IMG/VR virus record: IMGVR_UViG_3300043177_000122
Span: 160,001-224,000 of that record
Direction: 5' to 3' (one strand)
DNA from: a virus
Lineage: Duplodnaviria; Caudoviricetes
DNA: 64,000 bases
The stretch's first letter is position 1. The number at the start of each line of letters is the position of its first letter. The translations under genes were made by a program, and so were the position numbers. The notes below the pieces were generated by a model, which ran no database searches, was not told the origin of the DNA, and saw only the letters and a list, made by a program, of their open reading frames with translations. Shown one piece after another: positions 21,660 to 58,707 of the stretch.

Positions 21660-24600
21660 ATGACCGACTTTGTTTCGCTGCATAATCAGACGCAGTTTTC
21701 TATTCTTGATTCTATCATCACACCCAAGGCATTGTTCAAGCGAGCAAAAGAACTAGGGCAAACAGCAGTGGCAATAACAGACCATGGTTCTTTAGCTGGA
21801 ACATGGGATGCATGGAAGGCTTCAAAAGAAACTGGTGTAAAACTTATTATTGGATGTGAATGTTATTTTCAAGATGATGCCTCCAATGTTAATGAGAAAT
21901 TTCGTCACATTGTATTATTAGCCAAGAATGCTGTTGGCTATCGTAATTTGTTGACATTGAATAAGAAAGGTTTCGATCAGAGTTCCTTTGTTGGTAAGCG
22001 CGTTTATTCTGTGCTTGATTGGAAATTATTGGAACAGTATTCTGAAGGACTAATTTGTTTGACCGCTTGCGGTAATGGCATCATCAGCCAGCCTATTATG
22101 AAGGGTAAAATGGATGAAGCAGAGAAAACTCTGTTGCGCCTCAAAGATTTGTTTGCTGATAATTTGGGGATTGAAATTCAGCCCAACAACATGAAGCGCG
22201 GTTCAAATATCTTTAATGATGAAATTGATCAAGATTTTTTGAACAGACAATTAGTAAAGCTCGGCAAAAAACACAATGTTCGTGTTGTGGCTGCCTGTAA
22301 TGCTCATTATCTAACAAAAGAAGATGCGGATGTACATGACGCATTCCTTGCTATTGGTGCGCATCAGCCAAAACATTCTGGTTTCCGCCTTAAGTATCCG
22401 GTTCCCGAGTTTTATCTTAAAACGGGCGATGAAGTTAAAGAATTTTTTGCACGTGTTTATAAAGACGAAGCGCAAACCTTCGTAGATAATTCTATTTACT
22501 TTGCTAACTTGTGCGAGAAGCCTGAATGGATTGATCCGAAGTTTTCTAATCCATCAGGAAAAGAATTGCCAGTATTCCCTGTTAAAGATGAGCCTGATTA
22601 TCCTCAATTCCGTGAATGGGTTACCAAACAGCCAGAAGACATTCAGAAATTGGATGAGGATAAATTGTTCTTGCGCTACCGCTGTATTGAACGATTTGAT
22701 TCTCGTGTCAAGAATCTTACCCCAGAGCAACGTGAGCAATATAATAAACGTATAGAAGAGGAGCTGGATGTTTTAGAATTCCATGGATTCTCCAGTTATA
22801 TGCTCATTGTTGCAGATTTTATAGATTGGGCTAGAAAGCATGAAATTGCTGTAGGAGAAGGTCGAGGTTCTGTTGGCGGCTCACTAGTAGCTTATCTATT
22901 GGGAATTCACCAGGCCGATCCGATTAAATACAATTTGATTTTTGCTCGTTTTCATAATAAAGAAAAGAGTTCATTTCCAGATATTGATACTGACTTTGCG
23001 CCATCTGGTCGTGAGTTAGTTCAAAATTATTTGCGTAAGAAATATGGCGAAGATCATGTAGCACACGTTAGTAATGTTAACACAATTACACCAAAAGTGT
23101 ACGTTAAAGATATTGCGCGTATTTTTGAATTTGGAGGATCCAAAGAAGAAGCGTTTAAGATTGGCAATGAAGTTGCAAACTGTATTCCTGCAGATATACA
23201 CTCTATTGATGACGCTTTGACAAAAGTTCCCCTCTTTGCAGAGTATGCTAAGAAATATCCAGAGTTTGTAAAATACAAAGATATCTGTGGTAAATATCGA
23301 GCTTGGTCTACCCATGCTGGTGGTATCATTATCTCTGCCCGCCCTTTGACTGGACTCGTTCCGCTTAGAAAGGATAAGGATGGAGCCTTAGCCATTGAGT
23401 ATGATAAGGATAAAGCAGAAGAAAACGGCCTGGTCAAGATGGATACTTTGGGACTTTCAACTCTAGATATCATTGGTCAAGCTATGAAGTTAATTAAGGA
23501 GTCTGGCAAACCAGTTCCAGAAAATATTAGTTATGATGAATATGATCAAGAAGCATATGATATCATTTCTAGTGGCGATACATTTTGTGTATTCCAGTTA
23601 GGAACCTCTGGCGGAACTATTGATCTTTGTAAGCAGATTAAACCAAAGTCGGTTAATGATATTAGTTATATTAACTCTTTGGCAAGACCTTCTGCCCGAG
23701 ACATGCGTAAAGATTTTATCTTAACCAAAGTCGGCAAAAAACCATTCGCACTGTTGCATCCAACATTAGGTCGAGCATTCAATAATACATTCGGTTTCGG
23801 TCTTTATGAAGAGTCTTTGATGTATCTTGCCCAGGACGTAGCTGGATGGAGCTTACATGAAGCAGACCGTCTTCGTAAGTTAACTAAAGAAAAAGGTAAG
23901 AATCCTAAGAAGGTTCAAGAATGGAGAAATGAGTTTATTAAAGGCGCTGTAGAAAATAATGTAGATGAGGCTATTGCTAAACGTATTTGGGACGAAGTTG
24001 TTGATAAGTTCCAGGGTTACGGTTTTAACATGTCTCACAGTATTTTATACTCAATGACGAGTTACAAGACCGCTTATCTTAAAGCTCATTATCCAATTGA
24101 ATTCTTAATGGCTAACTTAATGGCAGAAGTTAAATCGAACTCTCCAGATGCAAAGGGCAACATTGAGAAGATCAAAAAAGAGATTCGTAAACGCAGGGTC
24201 AAAATTGTCCCTCCGGATATTAACAAATCACAACTATCTTATACCATTGAAGATGGTAACAAATTAATTACTGGTTTGGATGCAATTAAGTTTGTTGGTG
24301 CTGATGCTATAAATGATATTCTTGAAAAGAGACCTTTTACTAGTTTCTTTGATTTTATGTCTAGAGTTAGTTCAAAAACAGTTCGAGCAAATAGTATTCA
24401 GGCTTTAGCTGCATGTGGCGCGTTAGATTCGTTTGGTATTCCGCGCAAATTGATGTACTTGTATGTTTCTGACTATCGTAAGAAATTGCAAGTTTGGTTA
24501 AAGAAGCATGATCCTACTCAAGAGGAATTTATTTATCCATGGCCACAAGAGTCTGCTTGGACTATGCCAGAGATTTATGCTCTTGAGCATTATTATCTAG

Positions 24601-25172
24601 GTGAGTCATTTAGCTGCAAACCATCACTAGCATATGGTAAATTCTTTGATGGAGATGCTACAACTGTACAAGAAATTAAACGAATGAAGGATAAGACCAA
24701 TGTATCTTCTGTCAAAGGTATCATTCGTGATTTCTTTGAATTCCGTGTGAAAAAAGAAGGTAAGTATTATGGTCAGTCTATGATTAAAGCTGTAATGGAA
24801 GATAAAAATGGCGACCAATGTACTCTAACTATTTTCCCGGACCGCTGGAAAACCGTACAGGAACGAATTGCAGAACTTAATAAGAAGGCTGAATTTGATA
24901 TAGGTATAGCATTGTACTTCTCGGGTAACACCAATTCTTATGAAGATGATATGGGAATCATATTGGATCAATTATACCATATCGCGTTGCCGCCGTCTTT
25001 GCCGGCCGATCTAAAAGCTAAGAAAATCAATCTTAAAGAGGCAAAAGCTAAGCTTTTTGGAGAGGTAAAAGAGGAAAAACCTAAGAGTCCTCAGGAGATA
25101 CTAGATCAAATTGAAGATACTCTCTATGATGAGGGCCTAATTGATTTAGATGACGAAAATGAAGATGATTGA
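21660..25172 (+). CDS. dnaE: DNA polymerase III alpha subunit (family C)
   Basis: PHP domain (LHNQT.FS.LD, AITDHG), GRGSVGGSL, PDIDTD, KMDTLGL, FQGYGFNMSH, OB fold; GGAGG RBS. Confidence 0.97.
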   Translation: MTDFVSLHNQTQFSILDSIITPKALFKRAKELGQTAVAITDHGSLAGTWDAWKASKETGVKLIIGCECYFQDDASNVNEKFRHIVLLAKNAVGYRNLLTLNKKGFDQSSFVGKRVYSVLDWKLLEQYSEGLICLTACGNGIISQPIMKGKMDEAEKTLLRLKDLFADNLGIEIQPNNMKRGSNIFNDEIDQDFLNRQLVKLGKKHNVRVVAACNAHYLTKEDADVHDAFLAIGAHQPKHSGFRLKYPVPEFYLKTGDEVKEFFARVYKDEAQTFVDNSIYFANLCEKPEWIDPKFSNPSGKELPVFPVKDEPDYPQFREWVTKQPEDIQKLDEDKLFLRYRCIERFDSRVKNLTPEQREQYNKRIEEELDVLEFHGFSSYMLIVADFIDWARKHEIAVGEGRGSVGGSLVAYLLGIHQADPIKYNLIFARFHNKEKSSFPDIDTDFAPSGRELVQNYLRKKYGEDHVAHVSNVNTITPKVYVKDIARIFEFGGSKEEAFKIGNEVANCIPADIHSIDDALTKVPLFAEYAKKYPEFVKYKDICGKYRAWSTHAGGIIISARPLTGLVPLRKDKDGALAIEYDKDKAEENGLVKMDTLGLSTLDIIGQAMKLIKESGKPVPENISYDEYDQEAYDIISSGDTFCVFQLGTSGGTIDLCKQIKPKSVNDISYINSLARPSARDMRKDFILTKVGKKPFALLHPTLGRAFNNTFGFGLYEESLMYLAQDVAGWSLHEADRLRKLTKEKGKNPKKVQEWRNEFIKGAVENNVDEAIAKRIWDEVVDKFQGYGFNMSHSILYSMTSYKTAYLKAHYPIEFLMANLMAEVKSNSPDAKGNIEKIKKEIRKRRVKIVPPDINKSQLSYTIEDGNKLITGLDAIKFVGADAINDILEKRPFTSFFDFMSRVSSKTVRANSIQALAACGALDSFGIPRKLMYLYVSDYRKKLQVWLKKHDPTQEEFIYPWPQESAWTMPEIYALEHYYLGESFSCKPSLAYGKFFDGDATTVQEIKRMKDKTNVSSVKGIIRDFFEFRVKKEGKYYGQSMIKAVMEDKNGDQCTLTIFPDRWKTVQERIAELNKKAEFDIGIALYFSGNTNSYEDDMGIILDQLYHIALPPSLPADLKAKKINLKEAKAKLFGEVKEEKPKSPQEILDQIEDTLYDEGLIDLDDENEDD

Positions 25173-29088: not shown

Positions 29089-29595
29089 ATGAGCCAACAA
29101 GTAAGACTCGGCGATGTTTTAGGTGCTAACCTTGAGGAAGACTTTAAGAATTTTGACCTTACGGAAATACAAAGTGTATTGGAACAATTAAGGGATGTAG
29201 ATGCTATTGATTTAGCACATGCAGAACTTTTACAACAAAAATCATTAAGAGGAGCAGATATTTTAGCAGATTATCTAGCTAAGATGGTAAAGACAGTAGC
29301 ATATCTAGAATCGAAAGTAAATAGTACAAAGAATAAAGTGTCCTTAGAATATGCGTCTCCTGATGGAGCGCGAACGACCGTGGACATGAAGAAATGGGCG
29401 GGAGAATCATCGCCCGAAGTCGAAGCAATACTAGTAAAATTAGCAGAAGCCAAAGGTGCTAAAATGGCCCTGGACCGAAAATACGAGATTTTGATCAAAG
29501 CTCACCACCATTTTAAAGACATTGCTGGCGGGCTCCGAAAGACGATCCTCGGTTATAGTTCAGGCACCGGCAACCCGCCAGGCGAGGGCTATTGA
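29089..29595 (+). CDS. coiled-coil protein, possibly UvsY-like recombination mediator
   Basis: All-helical 168 aa directly upstream of recA; function inferred from position and size only. Confidence 0.45.
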   Translation: MSQQVRLGDVLGANLEEDFKNFDLTEIQSVLEQLRDVDAIDLAHAELLQQKSLRGADILADYLAKMVKTVAYLESKVNSTKNKVSLEYASPDGARTTVDMKKWAGESSPEVEAILVKLAEAKGAKMALDRKYEILIKAHHHFKDIAGGLRKTILGYSSGTGNPPGEGY

Positions 29596-29606
29596 TAGGA
29601 GAAAAA

Positions 29607-30803
29607 ATGTCAGATGATAAAAAAAAGAAAGCCGATAAGCTAACCGCATTTTTCCGAAGCTTTGCAGAAGCAGACGCTCAGTTAGATGTTAGACTCGCCC
29701 ATGAAACTATTGGAGAAAAACTTCCTGTTATTTCATCTGGCTCTATGGTTCTTGACGATGCTTTGTCATCCGGTGGTTTACCAAAAGGCAGATTGATTCA
29801 GTATTATGGCGCCCCCGGCAGTGGCAAAACCCTAATGGCAATGCTGGCTATGAAAGAAGCGCAACTACAAGACCCAACATCTCAACAGATGTTCATTGAT
29901 GCAGAAGGCACATTCGATGCTAAGTGGGCAGAGATTCTTGGACTAGATGTCACTAGAATTATTGTTGTAGATGGTGAAACGGCCGTTATTGGTCGTAGCT
30001 GTTTTGAGATGATTCTTGGGGTTCCTAAGGAAGATAAAAAGACTCATGAGCTAGTCGGCAAATCTAAGCAAGGACTACTCGATATGATTATGGCGGGAGA
30101 ATTCAATATCAACATGGTTGTGTTGGATTCACTCGGCGCCATTATTCCACCAGGCGAAGATGTTTCGGTTGTTGGAAAGATGAATATGGCTTTACTTGCC
30201 AGATTCTTAACTACTACTTTCCGTAAGCTTTCTCTTGATGCAAATAGGGCAATGGTGCCATTTATTTTCATCAACCATAAGAAAGCCAATATGGATCCTT
30301 ATGGTGTAGACCACTCGTTTTCTGGCGGAAATACTTACGCTCACTTCTTGAGTGCTAACGTTTACTTTGAAGCGGTAGCTCGTGCAGATGCGCAAATCTT
30401 GGATGAAAAAGAGCAAAAGGTCGGACATACGATGCGTGCAACCATTGAAAAATCGAAGTTTGGCCCTTACCCTCGTAAGTGTGAATTCAAAGTAAACTTC
30501 GGAGTCGGCGTTATAGATAAGCATGAAGAAATTGCACAGCTAGCTTTAGATTACAACGTGGTCGTTAAGACCTCCACAGTATCTCATGAATATGGTGATA
30601 AGAAGTGGGTTGGATTTCCAAAGTTCTGTGAAGCTCTTAAAGATGATCCAGCTCTTGCGACTGAACTAGCTTTGAAGATTAGCCAGGCGCGTGAGCAAAA
30701 GTGGGAAACAGCTCGTAAGGAACAAGAGGCCAAGAAAAATGGCGTTACTGCTGATGAAGCTGGTATAGAAACAGAAGCAAAGAAGGGCAAGAAAGGTAAG
30801 TAA
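29607..30803 (+). CDS. recA: RecA/UvsX recombinase
   Basis: ISSGSMVLDDALSSGGLPKGR, GAPGSGKT, FIDAE, VVLDSLGA, IFINH, GG; GGAG RBS. Confidence 0.93.
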   Translation: MSDDKKKKADKLTAFFRSFAEADAQLDVRLAHETIGEKLPVISSGSMVLDDALSSGGLPKGRLIQYYGAPGSGKTLMAMLAMKEAQLQDPTSQQMFIDAEGTFDAKWAEILGLDVTRIIVVDGETAVIGRSCFEMILGVPKEDKKTHELVGKSKQGLLDMIMAGEFNINMVVLDSLGAIIPPGEDVSVVGKMNMALLARFLTTTFRKLSLDANRAMVPFIFINHKKANMDPYGVDHSFSGGNTYAHFLSANVYFEAVARADAQILDEKEQKVGHTMRATIEKSKFGPYPRKCEFKVNFGVGVIDKHEEIAQLALDYNVVVKTSTVSHEYGDKKWVGFPKFCEALKDDPALATELALKISQAREQKWETARKEQEAKKNGVTADEAGIETEAKKGKKGK

Positions 30804-37724: not shown

Positions 37725-37727
37725 GCA

Positions 37728-38558: not shown

Positions 38559-38569
38559 GAGGCTATACT

Positions 38570-39283
38570 ATGAGAATTTCTGAACTATTGAATGCAATGG
38601 CTTCCTGGCTAGAAAGTCCAAATAATGAAGCTATGTTGCTTGCAGAAGCTGATGAAAAGTGCATGCATATAGTAGCAGAGTCTTGTGTTCTGGCTGCCGC
38701 ATTGCTCAAGAAGGCCGCTGATGAAGTAGATGTTCTTGAGCCACCTACTGAATCTGTTCTTACTCCAGAAGCTATTGAAGAGACTGCTGCATTAGCTACG
38801 GCTCTTGATCAGAGTGGTGACCCGCAACTTAAGAGAATGGCCTCTGTATTGGACGAGCTTCTTTTAACTATTGCTGCTCCACCAAATGCCTATGCTGAAC
38901 GTAAAGATTTAGTAGATTCTAGGGCAGATGAAATCAGAAAAAAGTACGAAGAGCCACGTAAGGAATTGCATAAGGTAAATCACCTTGGACGTTCTGAAAA
39001 GGCTATTGAAAATAGTGGATTTACCAAAGAATATAAGATTCTAGAGGCTCCCCTAAGCTCTCGTTACTGTCCAGATCATCCTGGCGCTCAAATTGCACGT
39101 GTAGGCGAACACGTATGGCAGTGTGAACTTGATAAAAAAACTTATAATTTTGAAACTGGCTTCGAATTAATTAACGGATCTAAAGTTCCTGGTGGAGACG
39201 TATCTCAACAGACTAACGGATTAAACACTCCATTCCATGCTATTTTTGATACGCGTGAAGGTAGACTAGGTTACAACAAGTGA
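38570..39283 (+). CDS. hypothetical protein with C-terminal CPDH...C cluster
   Basis: MRISELL N-terminus, ALDQSG motif, SSRYCPDHPG. Confidence 0.78.
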   Translation: MRISELLNAMASWLESPNNEAMLLAEADEKCMHIVAESCVLAAALLKKAADEVDVLEPPTESVLTPEAIEETAALATALDQSGDPQLKRMASVLDELLLTIAAPPNAYAERKDLVDSRADEIRKKYEEPRKELHKVNHLGRSEKAIENSGFTKEYKILEAPLSSRYCPDHPGAQIARVGEHVWQCELDKKTYNFETGFELINGSKVPGGDVSQQTNGLNTPFHAIFDTREGRLGYNK

Positions 39284-39432
39284 TAGATGAGCACATCTCA
39301 AAATTTCAAGAGGCCATAAGAGAGGTTTTGTCACAGTTAGATCCGGAGGCGGCTCAGCTTTTCTTAGACCGTTTCATGGAGAAATTGAATGAACAAAAAC
39401 GCACTCAAGAAAATTCTGGAACATCCAGATAA
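39280..39432 (+). CDS. 50-aa mini-protein paralogous to the C-terminus of the next gene (not in ORF track)
   Basis: GTGA overlap; IDEHISKFQEAIREVLSQLDPEAAQLFLDRFMEKL, 19/35 identical to the end of 39389..40147. Confidence 0.6.
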   Translation: MIDEHISKFQEAIREVLSQLDPEAAQLFLDRFMEKLNEQKRTQENSGTSR

Positions 39433-40147
39433 AGATGAAATCATCGGTAAACTAGTCTTAGATTATCCACCAAAAGAAATTCATGAATGGCTTGCTGGCA
39501 AATATACTAATGTTAGTGAAGCTAAGTTTGTTATTGCTGAAAAATCTATTAAAGTATTCAAAGATAATTATTTAGATGTCTATTCTATGATCCGTGAGGA
39601 TATGATTAAGACCAAACAAGCTGTAGCTACCAGTACAGAAGAACAGTTAGAATTAGCTGTTAAGAATAATTCCACTTACAAAAGCAAAATGTTGGAATTA
39701 GCTGGTAAAGAAATAGATGTTCGTCAAATGGTGGCTCATTTGTGCATTGCTATTGAAACACGTTTAGGTCAAGTATTTGATGAAATTCAAGAAGACCCAC
39801 GTAATATCAATACTAAAATTGATCGTGTTTTGATTGAATACGGTGAATTGTTAGGTAGTTTATTAGAAAAATATTATAAATTCACCGAGAATCCAGCAGA
39901 CTTGGTCATTCAACACAACGTGACTTTGCAAGCAGTAGATCAGCATATTTCGGTATTTCATGATGTAATCCGAGATGTTTTGTCTCAGCTAGATTTAGAA
40001 AGCTCAATGCTATTTATGGAGCTTTTCCAAGAAAAAATGGCTAAATTAAAAGCGCCAGCTCACGAACAACCGCTTAACACAGATATGAAACTTGCTGAAG
40101 CAAAACTTCTCAACGAAACCATTAACAAAAAGTTGAATAATCAATAA
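39389..40147 (+). CDS. helical protein, candidate small terminase subunit
   Basis: N-terminal HTH-like KILEHPDKDEII...EIHEWL plus coiled coil, recalling Mu gp27/DUF3486-like proteins; unverified. Confidence 0.45.
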   Translation: MNKNALKKILEHPDKDEIIGKLVLDYPPKEIHEWLAGKYTNVSEAKFVIAEKSIKVFKDNYLDVYSMIREDMIKTKQAVATSTEEQLELAVKNNSTYKSKMLELAGKEIDVRQMVAHLCIAIETRLGQVFDEIQEDPRNINTKIDRVLIEYGELLGSLLEKYYKFTENPADLVIQHNVTLQAVDQHISVFHDVIRDVLSQLDLESSMLFMELFQEKMAKLKAPAHEQPLNTDMKLAEAKLLNETINKKLNNQ

Positions 40148-41949
40148 TGCCAGAGAACAAACCTTCTAAAAAACCAATTATCGATATGCCTTCCAAAAAG
40201 CAATTGGCAAAGGTCGTTGGCCCATATTCTGATAAGGAGCTAGAGCTTACGCCAGAGATGGAAGAAAAGATGAAGAAGGACATGGAGTTTTTCGATCTCT
40301 ATGGTATTGATTATAGTAAATTTAAACCAGAGTTTCTTTCTTTTATCACTGATAAAAAAGCTTATCCTAACTATGACCAGTATCAGTATATTGCTGGCCA
40401 ACATGATCTAAAAAAGTGGATGTATGCTCTTAAAAACATTCACTATAAGCAAAAAGCAGGATTTCCATATCGTGAGGCCATTAAGACTGCAACTCAGGGT
40501 TGGAATAAAATGGAAATTTACGATTTCTTAAATTGGTTAAGGTTCTACGGAGAGGGGACTCACATGAAATATAAGTTTGCACAAGTCTGGTACACCAATG
40601 ATCAGCCAGGCTACTTCTTACATATCAAACCAGATCCTCCTAAAGAACCTGAGCCTCGCTATGATGCTAATGCTGTAAATGATGCTCGTGAAGAAGCTGA
40701 ACGCAAAGAAGAAAAAAGACAAATCATTGAAAAGCAACGTGCAAAAATTATTGGCCGCTTAGACTCTGCTGAGAAGTTGTTGCGCTCTCAAGATGGCCAA
40801 GAATTTGCTGGTAAAGAGTTAGAAAACTTGATGGAAGCAATTTATGCTCTCAAGAAAAAAGTTCAACTTGTTAACAAATTAAGCATTTCTACTCGTTTAT
40901 ATGAAGACATGATTGTGCGTGAAGGAAACGTACTCAAGCGTAACGGTTTTACTAAAGCTGCAGAAATATTGTATTCTCTCGCTCAAACTCCAGGCGCCTC
41001 TGCTGAAGTGGCACAAGAACAGTCAGCTGGAGATGCAGTTCCGCCACCAGTCCCACCTCCACCACCAACTGATCCATCTGGTGCCCCAGGAGGTCTACCA
41101 GCTACTCTGCCAACTACACCTAGTGTTCAAACAGAAAAGCCAACCTCAAAAGCTATAAATGAGTTCATTAGTAATATGAATGAAGGTAATAAAACTGATG
41201 CCACTAATTCTGAAGACGATCAATTAGAAGTAGAAGATTCAGAAGAGCCGTTGATGGTAACTGAGGCACAAATTACTCCTGCACCGCCTCCGCCACCTGC
41301 TGTTTTGGAAGATATTCCAACTACAGACACCCCAGCTCCTGATAGAAATCCTCCAGCATTCATTCCAGAAGCCACGCCTAAAGCTAAAAAACCTTTAAAA
41401 GAAGAACCACTAGAAGTAACCGAAGAAGATTTACCTCCACCAGGTGGTGAGGGACCATCTACAGAAGGTAAACCTTTGGGCGGTGTAAGTTTAGATAAAA
41501 TTGATAACGTATTCAAAGATGTTTCAATGGAAGAAATTGTAGCCGAATTAGAAGATATTTCTACTTACTATAAAGTACGTGAAATGCCAAGACGACTTGC
41601 TCGCCTAGATATGATGTTTGATGCTAAAGGAATTTCAGTATATTTTCCAAGTTTATCAGAAGCTCAGAATAGGGCGTTAGATGCTAATAATTATATTGCT
41701 ACTCGTATTGATGATATCTTGGCTAAGGTTCGTGGTGCTATGGTAACCAACGATATAGCCTCTAAATTGAAGACTGATCAAGATAAAGAGAAGCAGCGTA
41801 AGCAAATGAGAAAAGAACAAGAAAATGCTGAATTAGAAGGCGGTCCGACCCCTCCAGAAGGCAAAGAAACACCAAACGTTGAATTAGGAGAACTAGGAAC
41901 TCCAGCAACACCTCTACCAGCAGCTCCAGCAAGACCGTCAGCAGTTTAA
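40147..41949 (+). CDS. 600-aa acidic, Pro-rich protein (probable head/internal protein)
   Basis: KFAQ site, NGFTKAAEIL motif, long Pro/Glu-rich linkers. Confidence 0.75.
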   Translation: MPENKPSKKPIIDMPSKKQLAKVVGPYSDKELELTPEMEEKMKKDMEFFDLYGIDYSKFKPEFLSFITDKKAYPNYDQYQYIAGQHDLKKWMYALKNIHYKQKAGFPYREAIKTATQGWNKMEIYDFLNWLRFYGEGTHMKYKFAQVWYTNDQPGYFLHIKPDPPKEPEPRYDANAVNDAREEAERKEEKRQIIEKQRAKIIGRLDSAEKLLRSQDGQEFAGKELENLMEAIYALKKKVQLVNKLSISTRLYEDMIVREGNVLKRNGFTKAAEILYSLAQTPGASAEVAQEQSAGDAVPPPVPPPPPTDPSGAPGGLPATLPTTPSVQTEKPTSKAINEFISNMNEGNKTDATNSEDDQLEVEDSEEPLMVTEAQITPAPPPPPAVLEDIPTTDTPAPDRNPPAFIPEATPKAKKPLKEEPLEVTEEDLPPPGGEGPSTEGKPLGGVSLDKIDNVFKDVSMEEIVAELEDISTYYKVREMPRRLARLDMMFDAKGISVYFPSLSEAQNRALDANNYIATRIDDILAKVRGAMVTNDIASKLKTDQDKEKQRKQMRKEQENAELEGGPTPPEGKETPNVELGELGTPATPLPAAPARPSAV

Positions 41950-41957
41950 GGAGATAA

Positions 41958-45944: not shown

Positions 45945-47828
45945 ATGCCAAATTTAAATATAGAGAACAAAGAAATTTTTGAGAAGATGAAGAAACAACT
46001 TCTCATGATGGATCCGGTATCATTTTGCGAAGCCAACTTAACTTTAGATGGTGAACCATTCTCACTCACAAGCAATGGGTACAAGCCCTTCAGTGATATC
46101 TACAGATACATTGGGATCAAAGCATTAGAGAAAGATTCCAAACCAGTTATTCTAGTAAAGGGACGTCAGGTGGGAGCTACTACCATGGCAAGTGCTCTTG
46201 AGATGTATTTTATGGGATCTGGTTTGTTTGGAGATGGATTCCGTCCACCAATTCGTGTCATTCATGCATTTCCTCAGTTAGAACTGGCGGCAGCCTATTC
46301 AAAAACTAAACTTCAACAAATGATTGCTCAGGCTAAGATTCCTGAAGGTACGCCAGAAAACAAATCATCTCGTCCAAAGTCTTTCATGCAACAATTGCTT
46401 GATACTACAACTCCGACTAATGACTCCTTGCATTTTAAGCAGTTTATGGGAGGAAACCACTTGTGGATTGAGTCTACTGGTGTAGATGCTGACAGAATCA
46501 TGGGTCGTACTGCTGATATTCTTTTCTTTGATGAAGTGCAGAAAACAACAAGTGTAGCTATTGGAAATGCTCTTAAGATTTTAACCAACGCTAAGTATGG
46601 TAAGCCTACTAAGGGTGTACAGGTATTTTTCGGAACGCCTCGTCGTAAAGGTTCAGATTACCATAAGATGTGGCAATCTTCTTCCCAACAGTATTATTAT
46701 CTTGGATGTGGGAAATGTAAAGAGTATTTCCCACTTTATACTCCAGGCTCTGATGACTGGGAAAAAGTTTGGATTTATGGTATGACTGTTAAATGTACAC
46801 ACTGCGGTCATGAACAAAATAAACTAGAAGCTCAGGAGCGTGGTAAGTGGGTTGCACTTAAGGATCCTAATGATCCAGATTGTGCTATGGTTGGATTTCA
46901 TATCAATCAGCTTTACATGCCTAAATTTACTAGAGAGGATATTGAAAAAGAAAAACCAGGTAAACATCCAATCAATACAGAGCGCGTATTTCAAAATGAA
47001 GTTTTGGGAGAGTTTTATCAAGGCGATGCGACACCAATGTCTCCAGAAGATATTCGTGTTAACTGTGCCGATTTTGAAAGAAAATTTAGTCCTCGCATCA
47101 TGTCTCCAAAAGGTATGACACAGTATTTAACTGTTCTTGGAATAGACTATGGCGCCCGTTCAGATTTAGAACAATTAGCTGATCCAGAAAAAGTTAGACC
47201 AGCAGGGCAGTCATATAGTACTGCCGTTGTTTTGCAAACCAAAGGTCCAAGTATATTGTCAATTGAGTTTGCAACTAAATTCAAACGTAATGATATTGAG
47301 GGCAAGAAAGGCCTCATTGATCAGCTAATGAGACAATACAGCATTCAATTAGCTATTGGAGATATTGGTTATTCTAATGACTTTTCTGCGCTACTTCATA
47401 ATACATATGGAGATAGATACTTAGTATCACGTGCCCATAATAAGGTAAATGAGCATGTTAAGTTTAATCACGAAGCATTTCCAAAAGAAATCATTTTTGA
47501 AAGAGACTTTTATATTAGCGAACTCTACGATCAGATGAAAAAAGGATTGATTAGATTTCCTTATGGAGATTATGAAAAAGTTGCGTGGTTAATTGATCAT
47601 TGTTGTAGTATGGAATTAAAGCCTTCTATTTCTAAATATGGTGATCATACTGTACATTATGTTAAAGGCGGCACACCAAATGACGGATTTATGGCACTAT
47701 TGAACGCTTATTTGGCATTTAAATTCCTAGTAAGTAGAGGATTTACAAATAATAACCCTACATTGCATAATACTAAAAACCTGACCAAACCCATGGTAAT
47801 GACTGGATATGTTCCTAGGAAATTCTAA
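45945..47828 (+). CDS. terL: terminase large subunit (GpA-like)
   Basis: KGRQVGATT Walker A, LFFDEVQ Walker B, FGTP motif, CGKC...CTHC zinc finger, IDYG RNase H-like nuclease, PNDGFMAL. Confidence 0.9.
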   Translation: MPNLNIENKEIFEKMKKQLLMMDPVSFCEANLTLDGEPFSLTSNGYKPFSDIYRYIGIKALEKDSKPVILVKGRQVGATTMASALEMYFMGSGLFGDGFRPPIRVIHAFPQLELAAAYSKTKLQQMIAQAKIPEGTPENKSSRPKSFMQQLLDTTTPTNDSLHFKQFMGGNHLWIESTGVDADRIMGRTADILFFDEVQKTTSVAIGNALKILTNAKYGKPTKGVQVFFGTPRRKGSDYHKMWQSSSQQYYYLGCGKCKEYFPLYTPGSDDWEKVWIYGMTVKCTHCGHEQNKLEAQERGKWVALKDPNDPDCAMVGFHINQLYMPKFTREDIEKEKPGKHPINTERVFQNEVLGEFYQGDATPMSPEDIRVNCADFERKFSPRIMSPKGMTQYLTVLGIDYGARSDLEQLADPEKVRPAGQSYSTAVVLQTKGPSILSIEFATKFKRNDIEGKKGLIDQLMRQYSIQLAIGDIGYSNDFSALLHNTYGDRYLVSRAHNKVNEHVKFNHEAFPKEIIFERDFYISELYDQMKKGLIRFPYGDYEKVAWLIDHCCSMELKPSISKYGDHTVHYVKGGTPNDGFMALLNAYLAFKFLVSRGFTNNNPTLHNTKNLTKPMVMTGYVPRKF

Positions 47829-47906: not shown

Positions 47907-49790
47907 ATGGCTGGCATTAAAAAATCAGGATTAGGAGAACATCCGTCCTTTTCAGCGAAGTTCTTACAGGGTAGATCCACAATTCCTCAAGTAAGTGCTA
48001 TTATGGCACAAGGTGTTTCTGGTGAAAGAAGAATAATTCTTTCAGATGAAGTAGATCAAGGTTATTTTAGAGATGGCTCAGGACCAAATATTAATAAGAT
48101 GTCTGCTAATATGCCGACCAATGCTTCTAACGTAGCATTTTCTGTTGGTATGAAGAAAAATGCTCAAGCTGTTAGCAGTTCTGGCGGCATGTTTCGTGGC
48201 ATTCATGGAGATTCTGTTAAACAAACTCCTGAAGTTTATTCTCCTCTTTGGCTAAATTCTAATTTAAATCTACCTCGTGATAGAGCTACCATTAACGCGT
48301 GGTGCCGCAGCTTTTTTGCTTTGAATCCATTTGTGCATAATGCTATTAGTTTGCATAGCACATACCCTATTAGTAAGCTATCTATCAAATGCCCCAACAA
48401 GGATATTGAAAAATTCTTCGATGACATGATCGAAGAAATTGATTTAATGAATATCTGTGTACAAATAGCTCAAGAATATTGGCTTTTAGGAGAAGCATTC
48501 GTTTATGCAGAACTGGATGAAGGTAAAGGTAAGTGGAGTCGCCTACACATTCAAAATCCAGATTTCATGATCGTTAAGCGTACCGTCGTAGCTAGCGAAC
48601 CAATCATCATGTTGCGCCCCGATGAGAATCTCAAAAAAATCATTTTTTCTAATCGTCCAACCGACATTGAGCAACGTAAGCAGCTTAACCAGCATATTAT
48701 TGACTCAGTTAGACGTGGTGAAAATATTCAACTAGATAATTTCCATGTATCACACTTGGCTCGTAGAATCAGTCCTTATGAAATTAGAGGTACTGGACTT
48801 CCAGTTTGTATTTTTCGTCAGTTGATGCTTTTCGATAAGCTACGTGAATCTAAATATGCTCAATCTGATAATATGATTAATCCATTGACTTTGGTTAAGA
48901 TTGGTTCGGCAGATTATAAACCAACTTTTGCCGATCTTGAAGCTTGGAGAAGTGTATTTGAAGAAGCACAATATGACAAAGACTTCAAAATTTTTACCCA
49001 TGAGGGTGTAGCAGTTGAAAGAGTGGGTTGGGGTCAGGGCATCTATGATATCTCTGGTGATATTACCCAAATACTTAAAGAAGTATTTATTGGTTTATTC
49101 GTTCCACCAGTTATGATGGATGGTGGTGATACAACCACTTATGCTAATGCAGGTGTTGCTTTGGACATTCTACGTCAAAGATATATGCAATTCCGTAATA
49201 TGATGTCTATTTGGCTAAAGAATAAGATTTTTGCACCAATTTCTAAAATCCAAGGATTTTATGATTACTCTGGCGGTGAGAAACAACTTATTGTTCCAGA
49301 AATTGACTGGAATCACATGTCTCTATTTGATGCAGGTGATTACATCAATAGCTTAATTACATTATCTCAAGGACAAGCTGACCAAAAGAGAGTTTCTATT
49401 CATACTCTTTACCGTTCATTGGGTCTTGAATATGAAGATGAAGTACGCAAGATGCGTAAAGAAAATATTCAGAATGCAATTGCTAAGAAAGAAATTGCAG
49501 CTCTAGATCAATTAGATCTTAATGCTCTTCGTGCGCTGGATGATGAGGATGAAATCCCAGAACCAAAACAACCGGGTGCAGGACAAGAGCAGCCAGTGCC
49601 AGGAGAATCTTCAGGCGGAGCACCAGGCGGATTACCAGATTTGGGTCTACCAGGAGGCGCCCCACCTCCCCCACCACCTCCAGGCGGTGGCCCACCTCCT
49701 CCACCACCTCCAGCAAGCCCTCCAGCAAGCCCTCCAGCAGGCGGTCCTCCAGCAGGTGGCGAAGCTCCCCCACCCCCGCCTCCAGCATAA
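47907..49790 (+). CDS. portal protein with N-terminal leader and Pro/Gly-rich tail
   Basis: Directly after terL; WCRSFFALNPFVHNAI, EYWLLGEAF, RGTGL...IF, IKIG clip, GLFVPP...G...YANA pattern. Confidence 0.82.
   Translation: MAGIKKSGLGEHPSFSAKFLQGRSTIPQVSAIMAQGVSGERRIILSDEVDQGYFRDGSGPNINKMSANMPTNASNVAFSVGMKKNAQAVSSSGGMFRGIHGDSVKQTPEVYSPLWLNSNLNLPRDRATINAWCRSFFALNPFVHNAISLHSTYPISKLSIKCPNKDIEKFFDDMIEEIDLMNICVQIAQEYWLLGEAFVYAELDEGKGKWSRLHIQNPDFMIVKRTVVASEPIIMLRPDENLKKIIFSNRPTDIEQRKQLNQHIIDSVRRGENIQLDNFHVSHLARRISPYEIRGTGLPVCIFRQLMLFDKLRESKYAQSDNMINPLTLVKIGSADYKPTFADLEAWRSVFEEAQYDKDFKIFTHEGVAVERVGWGQGIYDISGDITQILKEVFIGLFVPPVMMDGGDTTTYANAGVALDILRQRYMQFRNMMSIWLKNKIFAPISKIQGFYDYSGGEKQLIVPEIDWNHMSLFDAGDYINSLITLSQGQADQKRVSIHTLYRSLGLEYEDEVRKMRKENIQNAIAKKEIAALDQLDLNALRALDDEDEIPEPKQPGAGQEQPVPGESSGGAPGGLPDLGLPGGAPPPPPPPGGGPPPPPPPASPPASPPAGGPPAGGEAPPPPPPA
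49707..49739 (+). repeat. 12-bp in-frame tandem repeat in portal tail
   Basis: CCTCCAGCAAGC x2 plus partial third copy. Confidence 0.8.
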
Positions 49791-55038: not shown

Positions 55039-58000
55039 ATGGTTATTGTTAAATTAGGCGAAGCCCACGAGATTAAATTGGAGAGTGTAGAGTCATGTCT
55101 TCCAGAAGTAAGCGCTGAGGTTTTAGAAAACTTCAAGAAGTTTGCAACTAATCTAAAGAAGATTGCCCCTAAAGCTGAAGACTTTCTATATTTCTCCGCT
55201 GTCATGATGCATGCAGCCGAAGCATCTGCATTAAATGAAGACGGTACACCTAGATTAACACTTAAAGGCGAACCAGTACAAGTAGGTTGGGACACTAGTG
55301 GTGGTACATGGAAATGGGCCAGTAATGATCCAAATGTTCGCCCATATAAGAATTCTAATGGCGATATATTTCCAGAAGCCGAACTAATTAAAGCTTACAA
55401 GAAATGGAAGCACAAGCCTCTTTGCGTGGATCATAAATCAAGTTCCGTAGAACACGTAAGAGGATTTATTGTTGATACCTATTATGATCGCAATCTCAAG
55501 AGAGTAATTGCATTATGCGCCTTAGATAAGGCAGGATTCCCTCAATTAGCTAGACAAATTTCAACAGGCGTTTCTAACTGTGTATCCATGGGCACCGCAG
55601 TAGGAAGAGCTATTTGTTATGATTGTGGTAGAGTCGCTCGTGCAGAGGCAGACTTCTGTAATCATATGAAAAACAAGACTTGCTACGGTGAAATTAACGT
55701 AGACCTCAACCCGATTGAGTTATCTATCGTTGTAAATGGTGCTGATCCTAGAGCCAACATCAAAAACATTATCGCCGCAGCTAATACCATGAACACTTAT
55801 CTAGAAAACCGTGCTAAGGAACTAGAAAAGGTGGCATCATCCTATCAAGCTACTATTATCAAGAGTAACGAGACAGGTGGTGCAGAGGTATCTGACACTA
55901 ATTCCATTACTGTCAGGGGTGAATCATTAGAGTCTTTCAAGCAAGATTTTGAACGAGGACTAGAAGAATTAGAGTCTCTTAATTCAAAATTTTCTCAAAA
56001 AGGTACTAATTCTTCAGCATCTAATCAATCGTCGGGGTCGATTGCCACGGATGACGGCGCACCCACGGATTCAGGATTGGCTCTCCAAACTCCGCAAACT
56101 AACAGGTTTGCATCCGCAGATGTAGAGGCGGAATCATTAGCTGAGCTTCAGCAAGTAACTGCGTCAATCGAAGCAACGCTAAGTCAAATGAAAAAGAGCT
56201 TGGATAAGTTAGCTAAAACTACTTCTACAAAAACACAAGAGGAAAATATGTCTGGATCAAAAGAAATTAATAAGCAAGCTTATTTCCAGGGTGGTGGTGG
56301 CGTTAATGAGCCAACTCCAGGTCAAGTTAAGTATCCAAAAGACGGGCTCAATGAGCAGCTTCGTGAGAACGAGGACAAGCACATGTTGGGTCAGCCTCCT
56401 TTCCCTGAGGTAGGTCCAGTCAATGGAATGCACCCTTCACCAGCTTCGGCTGATCCTTCTGGAGAGTTAGAGCGTAAGAAAATGCTTGCTCGTGCAGAAG
56501 CAGAAGAGCGTGCTCTCAAGCGTAACTCTATTGTAAATATGGTTAAGGATACCTTGAAGAACAAAGAGGCTTACTGGCAAGGCGCTGGTGGTGTTAACGA
56601 GCCAACACCAGGTAAAGTTAAGTATCCAAAGGATAAGCTAAACGAAGAGCTTCGTGATTACGAAGATAAGCAGATGGTTGGCCAATCACCATTCCCAGGT
56701 GTTGGACCAGTTGATGGTATGCATCCATCTCCAGCTTCTGCCGATCCTAAGGATGAACTAAAGCGTAAGCAGATGCTTGCTCGTGCTCAATTAAGAGCAA
56801 GATTTGTTAAAGCTGCCAATGGCGATGGTACTCAGAACAAAGCAAAAAGTGCTTGGGAAGTATTCCTAGGCGATAAGCTATTGCTTACTGCTTCTGTTGA
56901 TGAATTAGCTGGTGGAAATACTGCTGTCCTATATGACTCAATTGCAACTAAAGAATTTGGTGCCAAATTGATCGAAAAGGTTAAGGTACAAGGCGCTGAT
57001 GCAGTATCTAAGCTAATTAAGAAGGCACAGGCAACTCCTCCAGCTCCTCCAGCCGGCCCACCAGGTGATCCATCTAGCGCTACTCCAGGTGATATGGGTG
57101 GTGGCGATGCAGGCGGGCCTCCAGTAGAAGATGCTGGTAACTCTGGCGATCCAAAGCAACAAGCTTTAGATTTGGCTGAGAAAAATGTACAGATCAGCTC
57201 TGATTTGCAAGAGGCCGTTCGCGCTCTAACTGGCGAAAAAGCTGAAATGGGTAACTCAGATGCTGGCGGCGCAGCCCCAATGGCCGCTGATGACAGCAAA
57301 GAGTCTACTGCTTCTGATAAGTTTAGTTCAGCTACTCTGAACACTTTAAGAAGAGAACTTAATGGCGCACTAACTCATGCTATGAAGGAATCTATTGCAG
57401 AACTTGCAGAACACAAGCAAGAACTAGATATGATTGTTGGTATGTATGATAAGGGTGCTGTAACTCCGAACAACCAGGAATTTGTAGGAGCTATTGTAGA
57501 AGATGCTTTTAATGAGGCCAAGACTGCTATGGCAGATGGTTTCAAGTTAATGGCAGCTTTCGTTAAGTATGCTCGTGGTACTAAGGCCATTGTCAAGCGT
57601 GCTGAAATTGAATCAGAATTGCAAGCACTAGCCGAAGGAGATACCGAAATGAGCGACGAAAAAGATAGTCACTCCGCAGACGGCGGTGACTTGATGGATC
57701 TAATCAACGATACCAACGCAGATTTGGATGCCGTTCAAGAGATGATGGGTGATGATCAAGATCATGAATATCATGAAGGTGGCCTAGATTCACTTCTAGA
57801 AACCGATCCAATGGTCACTGATGAGCCACTAGCTATTGAAAATGAAGACCCTCTTACAGGTTTGGCTGACGACAATGATATCATCTTTGAACAAGGTGAG
57901 AAAATTCCACCAGAGTTGGCCGGAAAGAAGTTGACTATGGCATCTTATGATGATAGAGCAGGCCGCGCTGCCCTCAGGGCCAAGTTAGCTGCCGATGCTC

Positions 58001-58707
58001 TTGGTAAGGAAGAAGACGGAGAAATCCAGGATATGTCCAAGCAGAAGTTTAGTGACATGTTAGATGCTTCCCAGAAGCACACTGATGGTCAAACTGAATT
58101 GGACGTTAAGCCATCCGATAATCTCGGATTGGTAGAAACTGTTCAAGAAGTGAACAAGGCCATGATGGAAGTTGCAAAGGTTCCACCAAAGGTTCGTAAA
58201 GAAGCAGAAGTCATTCAGAAGTTAGTTTCTGAAGGCAAGCTTGATCCAAAAGACGTAGATGCTCTAGCATCCTACGGATTGGATGGTGAAGCAGTTGCTT
58301 ACTGGAAGAAGTACTTTGGTGAGGTTGAAGGCGGAAGCGAATTTGCCAGTGAAATGGTAAAGGAGCATGTCAAGTCTGCAATGGAAGAAGAACTTAACCA
58401 GTTCCGTGTCAAGTTAGCTCGTGCATACGAATTAGCTTATGATATGGCTGACCGTGGTCTCTGCTCTCACAATAGAGCAACCATCTCTGATCAGGTTGAT
58501 CAAATTATGAAGTTCAATGATGATGCATTCGAATCTCTAAAGAAGGTTGTTGCTCGTCATGAACCAGGTGTTCTCCGTAAGACAGTAGGTACCATTCCAC
58601 AAGTTGGTCTCAGAGTTGATGGAGAATTCTCTCCAGCTCAAGCAGTAGAGGATGACTCTTACGCCCAGTTGTCAGCCCTCTTTGGTAACAAAAAGGGTGT
58701 GTTCTAA
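55039..58707 (+). CDS. prohead maturation protease fused to long scaffolding/internal domain
   Basis: N.NGD.F...EL, PL.VDH (catalytic His), VSMG (catalytic Ser region), ELSIV..GADP.A; acidic coiled-coil C-terminal two thirds. Confidence 0.8.
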   Translation: MVIVKLGEAHEIKLESVESCLPEVSAEVLENFKKFATNLKKIAPKAEDFLYFSAVMMHAAEASALNEDGTPRLTLKGEPVQVGWDTSGGTWKWASNDPNVRPYKNSNGDIFPEAELIKAYKKWKHKPLCVDHKSSSVEHVRGFIVDTYYDRNLKRVIALCALDKAGFPQLARQISTGVSNCVSMGTAVGRAICYDCGRVARAEADFCNHMKNKTCYGEINVDLNPIELSIVVNGADPRANIKNIIAAANTMNTYLENRAKELEKVASSYQATIIKSNETGGAEVSDTNSITVRGESLESFKQDFERGLEELESLNSKFSQKGTNSSASNQSSGSIATDDGAPTDSGLALQTPQTNRFASADVEAESLAELQQVTASIEATLSQMKKSLDKLAKTTSTKTQEENMSGSKEINKQAYFQGGGGVNEPTPGQVKYPKDGLNEQLRENEDKHMLGQPPFPEVGPVNGMHPSPASADPSGELERKKMLARAEAEERALKRNSIVNMVKDTLKNKEAYWQGAGGVNEPTPGKVKYPKDKLNEELRDYEDKQMVGQSPFPGVGPVDGMHPSPASADPKDELKRKQMLARAQLRARFVKAANGDGTQNKAKSAWEVFLGDKLLLTASVDELAGGNTAVLYDSIATKEFGAKLIEKVKVQGADAVSKLIKKAQATPPAPPAGPPGDPSSATPGDMGGGDAGGPPVEDAGNSGDPKQQALDLAEKNVQISSDLQEAVRALTGEKAEMGNSDAGGAAPMAADDSKESTASDKFSSATLNTLRRELNGALTHAMKESIAELAEHKQELDMIVGMYDKGAVTPNNQEFVGAIVEDAFNEAKTAMADGFKLMAAFVKYARGTKAIVKRAEIESELQALAEGDTEMSDEKDSHSADGGDLMDLINDTNADLDAVQEMMGDDQDHEYHEGGLDSLLETDPMVTDEPLAIENEDPLTGLADDNDIIFEQGEKIPPELAGKKLTMASYDDRAGRAALRAKLAADALGKEEDGEIQDMSKQKFSDMLDASQKHTDGQTELDVKPSDNLGLVETVQEVNKAMMEVAKVPPKVRKEAEVIQKLVSEGKLDPKDVDALASYGLDGEAVAYWKKYFGEVEGGSEFASEMVKEHVKSAMEEELNQFRVKLARAYELAYDMADRGLCSHNRATISDQVDQIMKFNDDAFESLKKVVARHEPGVLRKTVGTIPQVGLRVDGEFSPAQAVEDDSYAQLSALFGNKKGVF
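56269..56787 (+). repeat. 76-codon internal duplication (56269-56496 and 56560-56787, period 291 nt)
   Basis: NK[QE]AY[FW]QG.GGVNEPTPG.VKYPKD.LNE.LR..EDK.M.GQ.PFP.VGPV.GMHPSPASADP..EL.RK.MLARA in both copies. Confidence 0.95.

What the first reader, a model, noticed from the sequence alone, without database searches (positions are those of the whole stretch)
39280..40147. Hidden 50-aa ORF that duplicates the C-terminal helices of the downstream candidate small terminase
Seen: the apparent intergenic gap 39284-39388 is fully coding from a GTG overlapping the upstream stop. Its product aligns without gaps, 19/35 identical, to VDQHISVFHDVIRDVLSQLDLESSMLFMELFQEKM near the end of 39389..40147, with synonymous differences in conserved codons (TCA CAG TTA vs TCT CAG CTA), which points to protein-level constraint. 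Inference: either a mini-subunit that co-assembles with or titrates the full-length oligomer (a possible packaging-timing regulator) or the leftover 3' end of a replaced homolog.
Basis: partly seen in the sequence, partly recalled or inferred. Interest (0 to 1): 0.6.

Follow-up and report, generated by a model that had tools for sequence, protein, structure and literature searches.

The report
Conserved mini-gene copying neighbour's helical hairpin
A 50-codon gene hidden in an apparent gap of an uncultivated jumbo phage is a real, selected copy of a two-helix hairpin from the next gene, born in a recombination hotspot; what it does is still unknown.

Summary
ORF 39280..39432 (+, GTG overlapping the upstream TGA, 50 aa) matches residues 183-217 of the downstream 252-aa protein (39389..40147) at 19/35 identities without gaps (in-genome E 3e-9; profile-profile 97.7%, E 2e-12).

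It is more than a scar. The ORF is open in all 10 related viral loci that carry it and was called in 16 protein clusters. Its start always overlaps or abuts the upstream stop. Variation by codon position runs 3>1>2, and deep pairs give pN/pS 0.27-0.5 (p down to 4e-8). All mini-ORFs form one clade apart from the parent segments. AlphaFold2 predicts a confident helix-turn-helix hairpin (pLDDT 88).

It is also dispensable. It is absent from several close relatives, and the same intergenic site holds a homing-endonuclease gene, its remnants, or other partial copies of the 252-aa gene in other relatives. One of these is an independent recent duplication of the same hairpin.

The 'small terminase' label for the 252-aa protein has no support. 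Binding between the two proteins is not shown.

The parts
39280..39432 (+). Mini-ORF, 50 aa, GTG start overlapping the upstream TGA (GTGA). Predicted helix (2-18), turn, helix (22-46).
39283..39387 (+). Core of the mini-ORF (residues 2-36), paralogous to residues 183-217 of the 252-aa protein. This is the only part free of overlap with another gene.
39389..39432 (+). 44-nt dual-coding overlap: the tail of the mini-ORF (NEQKRTQENSGTSR*) is read in the +2 frame of the conserved N-terminus of the 252-aa gene. In 9 of the 10 carrier loci the stop falls at this same place; in L023 the overlap is 47 nt.
39379..39383 (+). GGAGA Shine-Dalgarno-like motif for the 252-aa gene, lying inside the mini-ORF coding sequence.
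   Evidence: read from the sequence
38570..39283 (+). Upstream conserved 237-aa gene of unknown function. Its stop codon overlaps the mini-ORF start, the geometry of translational coupling.
39389..40147 (+). Parent gene: a conserved 252-aa all-helical protein of unknown function, with 252 clusters at 50% identity in public data.
39935..40039 (+). Segment of the 252-aa gene (residues 183-217, within helices 171-200 and 203-220) that the mini-ORF duplicates.
39938..39970 (+). 33-nt element inside the parent segment, conserved at synonymous sites across about 60 diverged relatives. Its function is unknown and the mini-ORF copy does not keep it.

Best explanation
The mini-ORF is a genuine accessory protein-coding gene of a clade of uncultivated jumbo phages. 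It arose once, long ago, as a partial copy of the C-terminal two-helix hairpin of the neighbouring 252-aa core protein. The copy formed at the junction between the 237-aa and 252-aa genes, a site repeatedly remodelled by a free-standing homing endonuclease and by illegitimate recombination. It is translated by coupling to the upstream gene (start codon on or next to that gene's stop) and yields a free 35-45-residue helical hairpin plus a tail forced by the overlap. Inferred, not shown: the free hairpin occupies the surface that the parent's own hairpin normally contacts, either on the 252-aa protein or on its partner, and so modulates that protein's assembly or activity. The gene is dispensable and has moved or been lost many times.
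For: SHOWN. (1) The homology is real. (2) The frame is open in all 10 carrier loci, while the other five frames carry 0-6 stops each, mostly at least one. Sixteen protein clusters have been called by others, many with ATG starts. (3) Starts overlap or abut the upstream stop: GTGA, TAATG, TAAATG, TAAACCATG. (4) Mean pairwise difference at codon positions 1, 2, 3 is 0.40, 0.29, 0.56. Deep pairs have saturated synonymous sites but conserved residues, for example window vs L023 pS 0.92, pN 0.25, Fisher p 4e-8, and vs L016 p 3e-6. (5) All mini-ORFs form one clade (support 0.97) apart from the parent segments, so the constraint acts on the mini-ORF itself and not through gene conversion. (6) Conserved mini positions L17, D21, A25, F28 coincide with the parent's invariant or nearly invariant L198, D202, S206, F209. 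(7) AlphaFold2 gives a helical hairpin at pLDDT 88, the same secondary structure as parent helices 171-200 and 203-220. (8) Hotspot and origin: endonuclease genes (phrog_681, 559, 3339; DUF723/DUF4379 zinc fingers) or their 3' remnants sit at the same site in at least 10 relatives. An independent, recent, internally deleted copy of the same hairpin is present in L031/L069, 90% nt identical to its own parent.
Against: No expression data exist. The window copy starts with GTG and has no clear Shine-Dalgarno motif. Among the closest carriers pN/pS is 0.6-1.2 and not significantly below 1, and the N-terminal third is hypervariable with indels. The gene is missing from close relatives (L004, L006-8, L010-13) and reduced to a 12-codon stub in L064, so it is not essential. 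In the five closest carriers its 3' half is far less diverged at synonymous sites than the flanking genes (pS about 0.2 against 0.6-0.7). That could reflect a nucleotide-level role or recent lateral spread rather than protein function. The function and oligomeric state of the parent protein are unknown, so the proposed target interface is pure inference.
Confidence: 0.5

Rival explanations
1. It is a non-functional recombination scar: the leftover hairpin-coding piece of a duplicated or replaced copy of the 252-aa gene. It remains open only because it is short and was once coding.
For: The site is a hotspot littered with other fragments: L047/L049 carry pieces like residues 115-165, L031 carries an internally deleted copy, and L012/13 and L025 carry endonuclease remnants. 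Distribution is patchy with repeated loss. Close pairs have pN/pS near 1.
Against: The frame is open in every carrier across lineages whose synonymous sites are saturated. The chance for about 36 AT-rich codons is roughly 0.1 per independent lineage, and at least five such lineages exist. Deep pN/pS is 0.27-0.5 with p down to 4e-8. Start codons are kept, several as ATG. Mini-ORFs form a separate clade with their own conserved residues. Loss occurs by deletion, never by stop or frameshift.
Confidence: 0.13
2. The act of translation or the DNA insert matters, not the peptide. The ORF would relay ribosomes from the 237-aa gene across the ribosome-binding site of the 252-aa gene to tune its translation. 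Alternatively, the insert separates the two conserved gene ends and so destroys the target of the homing endonuclease that invades this junction.
For: The start is coupled to the upstream stop. The ORF runs through the GGAGA and ATG of the 252-aa gene and stops 44 nt inside it (47 nt in L023) in all carriers. No carrier of the mini-ORF has the endonuclease gene, which in relatives sits exactly at this junction. There is an island of 91-97% nt identity over 39330-39430 in five lineages.
Against: Neither role requires amino-acid conservation with saturated synonymous sites or retention of the hairpin core positions. RNA folding of the region is unremarkable (z -1.8). Relatives with a 9-45-nt spacer manage without it.
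Confidence: 0.17
3. It is a functional small protein that has taken on a role unrelated to the 252-aa protein, for example binding a host or other phage factor. Only the hairpin scaffold is retained.
For: Mini-ORFs evolve much faster than the parent segment, with long branches against near-zero branches. The surface and N-terminal residues are hypervariable, as is often seen in host-interaction or conflict genes.
Against: The most conserved positions are those shared with the parent. The gene has stayed welded to the parent's start codon in every carrier. There is no hit to any other family.
Confidence: 0.2

Closest known systems
Eukaryotic microProteins / small interfering peptides (e.g. LITTLE ZIPPER vs HD-ZIPIII, Id vs bHLH; from general knowledge)
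   Same: A very small single-domain protein that evolved by partial duplication of one helical module of a larger protein and lacks the rest of that protein.
   Different: Those are shown to heterodimerise with and inhibit transcription factors. Here neither binding nor the parent's function is known, the system is a phage operon, and the copy sits immediately upstream of, and overlaps, its parent.
Inhibitory protein fragments that bind native interfaces of their parent protein (PMC11831152, abstract)
   Same: The concept that a fragment of a protein can regulate it by occupying one of its interfaces.
   Different: Those are engineered fragments measured in E. coli. This is a naturally fixed, diverged copy (54% identity), and no inhibition has been tested.
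Free-standing homing endonucleases of T4-like and ICP1 phages that drive gene conversion of flanking DNA and mark recombination boundaries (PMC2330249, PMC2790892, PMC10448857, abstracts)
   Same: The junction between the 237-aa and 252-aa genes carries an endonuclease gene in many relatives, with degenerate remnants in others and patchy lateral distribution of inserts.
   Different: The window has no endonuclease gene. The link between nuclease activity and the birth of the mini-ORF is inferred from co-location only. No cleavage site has been mapped.
Nested C-terminal products of phage genes made from internal in-frame starts (e.g. lambda Nu3 within C, T7 4B within 4A; from general knowledge)
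   Same: A short protein sharing a C-terminal module with a longer one encoded in the same operon.
   Different: Here the short protein comes from a separate, duplicated and diverged ORF upstream of the long gene, not from an internal start.

Membership tests
Protein-coding gene (as opposed to a chance ORF or scar) | Frame kept open in diverged homologous sequences | tested here: met
   Open in 10 of 10 loci, while the other frames carry 0-6 stops each, mostly at least one. Sixteen called protein clusters.
Protein-coding gene (as opposed to a chance ORF or scar) | Excess of synonymous over non-synonymous change | tested here: met
   Deep pairs give pN/pS 0.27-0.56, Fisher p 4e-8 to 4e-3. Close pairs give 0.6-1.2, not significant. 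Codon-position variability runs 3>1>2.
Protein-coding gene (as opposed to a chance ORF or scar) | Evidence of translation | not testable with these tools
   No ribosome-profiling or proteome data are available. Only the coupling geometry of start and stop codons can be read.
microProtein-type regulator of its parent | Small protein homologous to one module of a larger protein and lacking the rest | tested here: met
   50 aa against residues 180-229 of 252; hhalign 97.7%. Hairpin model at pLDDT 88.
microProtein-type regulator of its parent | The copied module is an interaction or oligomerisation interface of the parent | not tested
   The monomer model of the parent is of low confidence (pLDDT 66, pTM 0.30). 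Its oligomeric state is unknown.
microProtein-type regulator of its parent | Physical binding to, and functional interference with, the parent | not testable with these tools
   Needs co-purification and a functional assay.
   No Pfam, PHROG, NCBIfam or PDB-sequence match for the protein, for 34 aligned relatives, or for 10 remote relatives. The only trace is an Atlas lead to a Terminase_5 cluster at 0.89 with 131 shared features, below the level the tool calls reliable.
   The model is all-helical but of low confidence. Foldseek against viral models finds nothing at E<=0.001. VIA-align finds only generic helical hairpins over residues 106-171, Z about 9.
   terL is at 45945..47828 (phrog_675, E 1e-57), 5.8 kb and six ORFs downstream. 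The block of 237-aa, 252-aa, about 600-aa and CCA-type nucleotidyltransferase genes is syntenic even in remote relatives.
Homing-endonuclease-associated gene fragment | Truncated gene copy next to a nuclease gene or its remnant | tested here: not met
   Met in relatives (L047, L049, L133). Not met in the window or in any mini-ORF carrier. The genome as assembled has no such nuclease, so the link is historical at most.

The most novel reading that the evidence does not exclude
The mini-ORF is a phage-encoded microProtein that caps or poisons the assembly of a core jumbo-phage protein through a free copy of its hairpin. Selection has produced such a copy at least twice independently: the old mini-ORF clade and the recent L031 copy. 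A bolder version holds that the 252-aa protein is a divergent small terminase and that the 33-nt synonymously conserved element at codons 184-194 is its pac or nuclease site. Breaks at that element would have seeded the recurrent partial duplications, which begin within a few codons upstream of it, and a HEG-p252 junction falls inside it in L133.
Probability: 0.15. Interest if true: 0.75.

Novelty: new variant of a known kind. Interest (0 to 1): 0.45.

Why it matters
Small ORFs in apparent intergenic gaps are routinely missed in phage annotation. Here one can be shown by comparative evidence alone to be a selected gene, with a traceable birth: a partial duplication of a neighbour's helical hairpin at a homing-endonuclease hotspot. 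If the free hairpin does act on its parent, it would be a natural prokaryotic-virus example of microProtein-style regulation and a handle on a widespread but uncharacterised core protein family of huge phages (252 clusters at 50% identity). If it does not, the locus still documents how nuclease-driven recombination creates new small genes.

Tried and rejected
- Complex prediction of the mini-protein with the 252-aa protein, using both family alignments, gave no verdict (score 0.12, mark 0.32). It is not used as evidence either way.
- The search for sequencing runs listed no RNA holder. Only two freshwater DNA runs, which may be the source sample, and small-share soil runs appeared. Expression could not be examined and read laying was not run.
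- Identifying the 252-aa protein led nowhere. Tried: Pfam, PHROGs and NCBIfam on the protein, Pfam on its 34 aligned relatives and PHROGs on 10 remote relatives; a PDB sequence profile; Foldseek against BFVD; VIA-align against 48,000 PDB chains, generic hairpins only; and ESM Atlas, a sub-threshold Terminase_5 / Mu gp27 lead only.
- Neighbourhoods of remote relatives show the same synteny and no terL adjacency.
- A -1 frameshift fusion of the 237-aa protein to the mini-ORF is rejected. There is no slippery heptamer in the 18 nt available, and in L055, L074 and L079 stops in the mini frame sit immediately before its ATG.
- Ongoing gene conversion from the parent as the source of conservation is rejected. 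Mini-ORFs are 31-56% identical to their own parent segment but up to 82% identical to each other, and they form their own clade.
- RNA structure over the mini-ORF (z -1.8) and over the 33-nt element (z -0.5) is not significant. The promoter and terminator scan found nothing above shuffles.
- The search for a longer contig with the L133 arrangement found none in viral contigs.
- A scan of viral contigs with the mini-ORF alignment returned mainly parent segments and no new carriers.
- The search for short homologues of the 252-aa protein returned mostly contig-end truncations.

Full report
CONTEXT

The window is bases 160001-224000 of a 359-kb IMG/VR viral record, estimated 83% complete. PHROG matches place the finding between two modules. 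Upstream is a replication module: DNA polymerase 21660..25172, UvsX-like 29592..30803, SSB and primase. Downstream is the packaging and head module: terL 45945..47828, portal 47907..49790 and a protease-domain protein 55039..58707. The finding lies in a block of conserved genes of unknown function: 532, 276, 237, 252 and 600 aa, followed by a CCA-type nucleotidyltransferase. This block is syntenic in 80 related viral contigs and in remote relatives.

THE OBSERVATION

ORF 39280..39432 (+) starts with a GTG whose TG belongs to the TGA stop of 38570..39283. It encodes 50 aa and ends 44 nt inside 39389..40147. Residues 2-36 align without gaps to residues 183-217 of the 252-aa protein, 19/35 identical.

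A six-frame search of the whole genome with the mini protein finds only itself and that segment (E 3.1e-9). A profile-profile comparison of the two families gives 97.7% probability and E 2.1e-12.

IS IT A GENE?

Carriers and absences
- In the 80 related loci, the spacer between the 237-aa and 252-aa genes ranges from 9 nt to 2 kb.
- A homologue of the mini-ORF is present in L003, L005, L009, L014, L016, L023 and L079 (close relatives).
- It is also present in L055/56 and L074/76, whose 252-aa proteins are only 58-66% identical to the window's.
- A protein search found 16 further clusters that gene callers had already predicted, many starting with ATG.

Frame and start codon
- In all 10 loci examined the frame is open, while the other five frames of the same stretch carry 0-6 stops each, mostly at least one.
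- The start codon overlaps or abuts the upstream stop (GTGA, TAATG, TAAATG, TAAACCATG). This is the usual geometry of translational coupling.
- The stop falls at the same point 44 nt into the 252-aa gene (47 nt in L023), because that frame of the conserved HPDKD codons reads TAA.

Substitution pattern
- Mean pairwise difference at codon positions 1, 2, 3 is 0.40, 0.29, 0.56.
- Between deep lineages synonymous sites are saturated while residues are kept. Window vs L023: pS 0.92, pN 0.25, Fisher p 4e-8. Window vs L016: p 3e-6. Window vs L074: p 2e-4.

The constraint is the mini-ORF's own
- Each copy is 31-56% identical to its own parent segment but up to 82% identical to other mini-ORFs.
- All ten form one clade (support 0.97) separate from the parent segments. 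This rules out gene conversion from the parent as the source of conservation.

Structure
- The best-conserved mini positions (L17, D21, A25, F28) coincide with the parent's invariant or nearly invariant L198, D202, S206 and F209.
- AlphaFold2 folds the mini alignment as helix 2-18, turn, helix 22-46 at pLDDT 88.
- This matches the secondary structure of parent helices 171-200 and 203-220.

I conclude with about 85% confidence that it is a real protein-coding gene.

REASONS FOR CAUTION

- The gene is accessory. Close relatives L004, L006-8 and L010-13 lack it, and L064 keeps only a 12-codon stub. On the tree of the 252-aa protein the carriers fall in three separate places.
- Among the five closest carriers pN/pS is 0.6-1.2 and not significant. 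The N-terminal third is hypervariable.
- In those five carriers synonymous divergence of the mini-ORF is only 0.17-0.24, although the flanking genes in the same genomes show 0.57-0.71. A sliding window shows an island of 91-97% nucleotide identity over 39330-39430. This points to recent lateral spread of the cassette among these phages, or to an added nucleotide-level constraint near the ribosome-binding site of the 252-aa gene.

ORIGIN

The junction between the 237-aa and 252-aa genes is a hotspot.
- In L017-20, L024, L037, L047/57, L049, L054 and L075 it holds a 243-376-aa gene. That gene has repeated treble-clef zinc fingers (DUF723/DUF4379) and a Vsr/REase-like C-terminus, and it matches PHROG endonuclease and homing-endonuclease families (phrog_681 E 5e-63, phrog_559, phrog_3339).
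- L012/13 and L025 keep only its last codons. This is the gain, decay and loss cycle typical of homing endonuclease genes.
- L047 and L049 carry, after the nuclease gene, a 47-54-aa ORF resembling residues about 115-165 of the 252-aa protein.
- L031/L069 carry a 55-aa ORF made of the first 8 codons of the 252-aa gene fused to its codons 180-222. It is 90% nt identical to that phage's own gene and groups with it. This is an independent, recent duplication of the same hairpin.
- L009 and L063 carry yet another small ORF. In L063 it begins with a copy of the 252-aa protein's N-terminus (MNKDALEKL).

The mini-ORF is thus one of several products of break repair or template switching at this site. 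It is the one that has persisted under selection. The causal link to the nuclease is inferred from co-location. The window genome has no copy of the nuclease.

A RELATED ODDITY IN THE PARENT GENE

- Across 65 distinct 252-aa genes from the related loci, synonymous codon identity is about 0.5. It rises to 0.87 over codons 184-192 and stays at 0.73-0.76 in the next two 9-codon windows, which reach codon 198.
- The 33 nt GATCAGCATATTTCGGTATTTCATGATGTAATC (39938-39970) are nearly invariant.
- The element is unique in the window. It has no open alternative frame and no significant RNA fold.
- It lies at the start of the duplicated segment, but the mini-ORF copy has not kept it.
- In one 1-kb contig (L133), the end of a nuclease gene is followed by a C-terminal piece of the 252-aa gene whose homology begins in the middle of this element.
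- It may be a nuclease or packaging site. I could not test this.
- Remote homologues of the 252-aa protein carry DP...A in the hairpin turn, like the mini-ORF. All 34 aligned clade members have DLE.S. The duplication may therefore predate the clade or derive from outside it.

WHAT THE PARENT PROTEIN IS

It remains unknown.
- It is a widespread family: 616 hits at 90% clustering and 252 clusters at 50%.
- It is all-helical, with two consecutive hairpins in a low-confidence model (pLDDT 66).
- No family, solved structure or fold match was found.
- The only hint towards a small terminase is a sub-threshold Atlas neighbour.
- It is not adjacent to terL.

MECHANISM

Shown:
- a conserved, coupled small ORF encoding a hairpin paralogous to the parent's hairpin;
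- the hairpin core positions are retained.

Inferred:
- the free hairpin docks where the parent's hairpin docks and modulates that protein.

Rivals:
- a functionless scar (0.13);
- a role for the act of translation, or for the insert as a spacer that destroys the nuclease target (0.17);
- a neofunctionalised small protein acting elsewhere (0.20).

A complex prediction gave no verdict and no RNA data set was listed. Neither is used as evidence.

COMPARISON AND NOVELTY

The closest concept is the eukaryotic microProtein, or more generally a fragment that inhibits its parent (PMC11831152). The closest evolutionary setting is homing-endonuclease-driven recombination in phages (PMC2330249, PMC2790892, PMC10448857). 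A selected mini-paralog of a neighbour's hairpin, overlapping its parent's start, is to my knowledge not a described phage arrangement. I rate it a new variant of a known kind.

Interest is moderate (0.45). The gene is real and its birth is traceable, but its function and that of its parent are unknown, and the phage is uncultivated.

Noticed in passing
window 39938-39970 (codons 184-194 of 39389..40147): A 33-nt stretch is conserved at synonymous sites across about 60 diverged relatives (synonymous codon identity 0.87 against about 0.5 background). It is unique in the window, has no alternative open frame and no significant RNA fold. It may be a nuclease or pac-type site.
   Followed up: partly
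L017, L024, L037, L047, L049, L054, L075 (junction of the 237-aa and 252-aa gene homologues); remnants in L012/13, L025: A free-standing homing-endonuclease-like gene (zinc-finger repeats plus a Vsr/REase-like C-terminus; phrog_681, 559, 3339) occupies exactly the site where the window has the mini-ORF. Decayed 3' remnants are present in other relatives.
   Followed up: partly
L031:3977-4144 (same in L069): An independent, recent 55-aa ORF is made of codons 1-8 fused to codons 180-222 of that phage's own 252-aa gene, at 90% nt identity. It sits next to an unrelated 156-aa inserted ORF.
   Followed up: partly
L047:3861-4004, L049:3980-4144: 47-54-aa ORFs between the endonuclease gene and the 252-aa gene resemble residues about 115-165 of the 252-aa protein at 32-42% identity. 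They are another old partial copy.
   Followed up: no
L133:1-1023 (1-kb Logan contig): The end of an endonuclease gene is followed by an 85-aa ORF consisting of a novel N-terminus plus the 252-aa protein from F190 onward, then the 600-aa gene homologue. The breakpoint lies in the middle of the 33-nt conserved element. This may be a split gene or a defective variant; the contig is too short to tell.
   Followed up: partly
L009:3766-4017, L063:404-763: Another small accessory ORF (83 and 119 aa) is inserted at the same junction. The L063 copy begins MNKDALEKL, a copy of the 252-aa protein's N-terminus.
   Followed up: no
window 39330-39430: An island of 91-97% nucleotide identity is shared with L014, L003, L005 and L079, although the flanking genes in these genomes are near synonymous saturation (pS 0.57-0.71). 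This suggests recent lateral exchange of the cassette or a cis-acting role.
   Followed up: partly
L166:664-1449, L168:4728-5585: Remote homologues of the 252-aa protein carry DP/NP...A in the hairpin turn, as the mini-ORF does. All 34 aligned members of the window's clade have DLE.S.
   Followed up: no
window 36126-42731: The block of 532-, 276-, 237-, 252- and about 600-aa genes (the last proline-rich) plus a CCA-type nucleotidyltransferase is syntenic even in relatives with only E 1e-18 similarity. None of the first five has any family match.
   Followed up: partly
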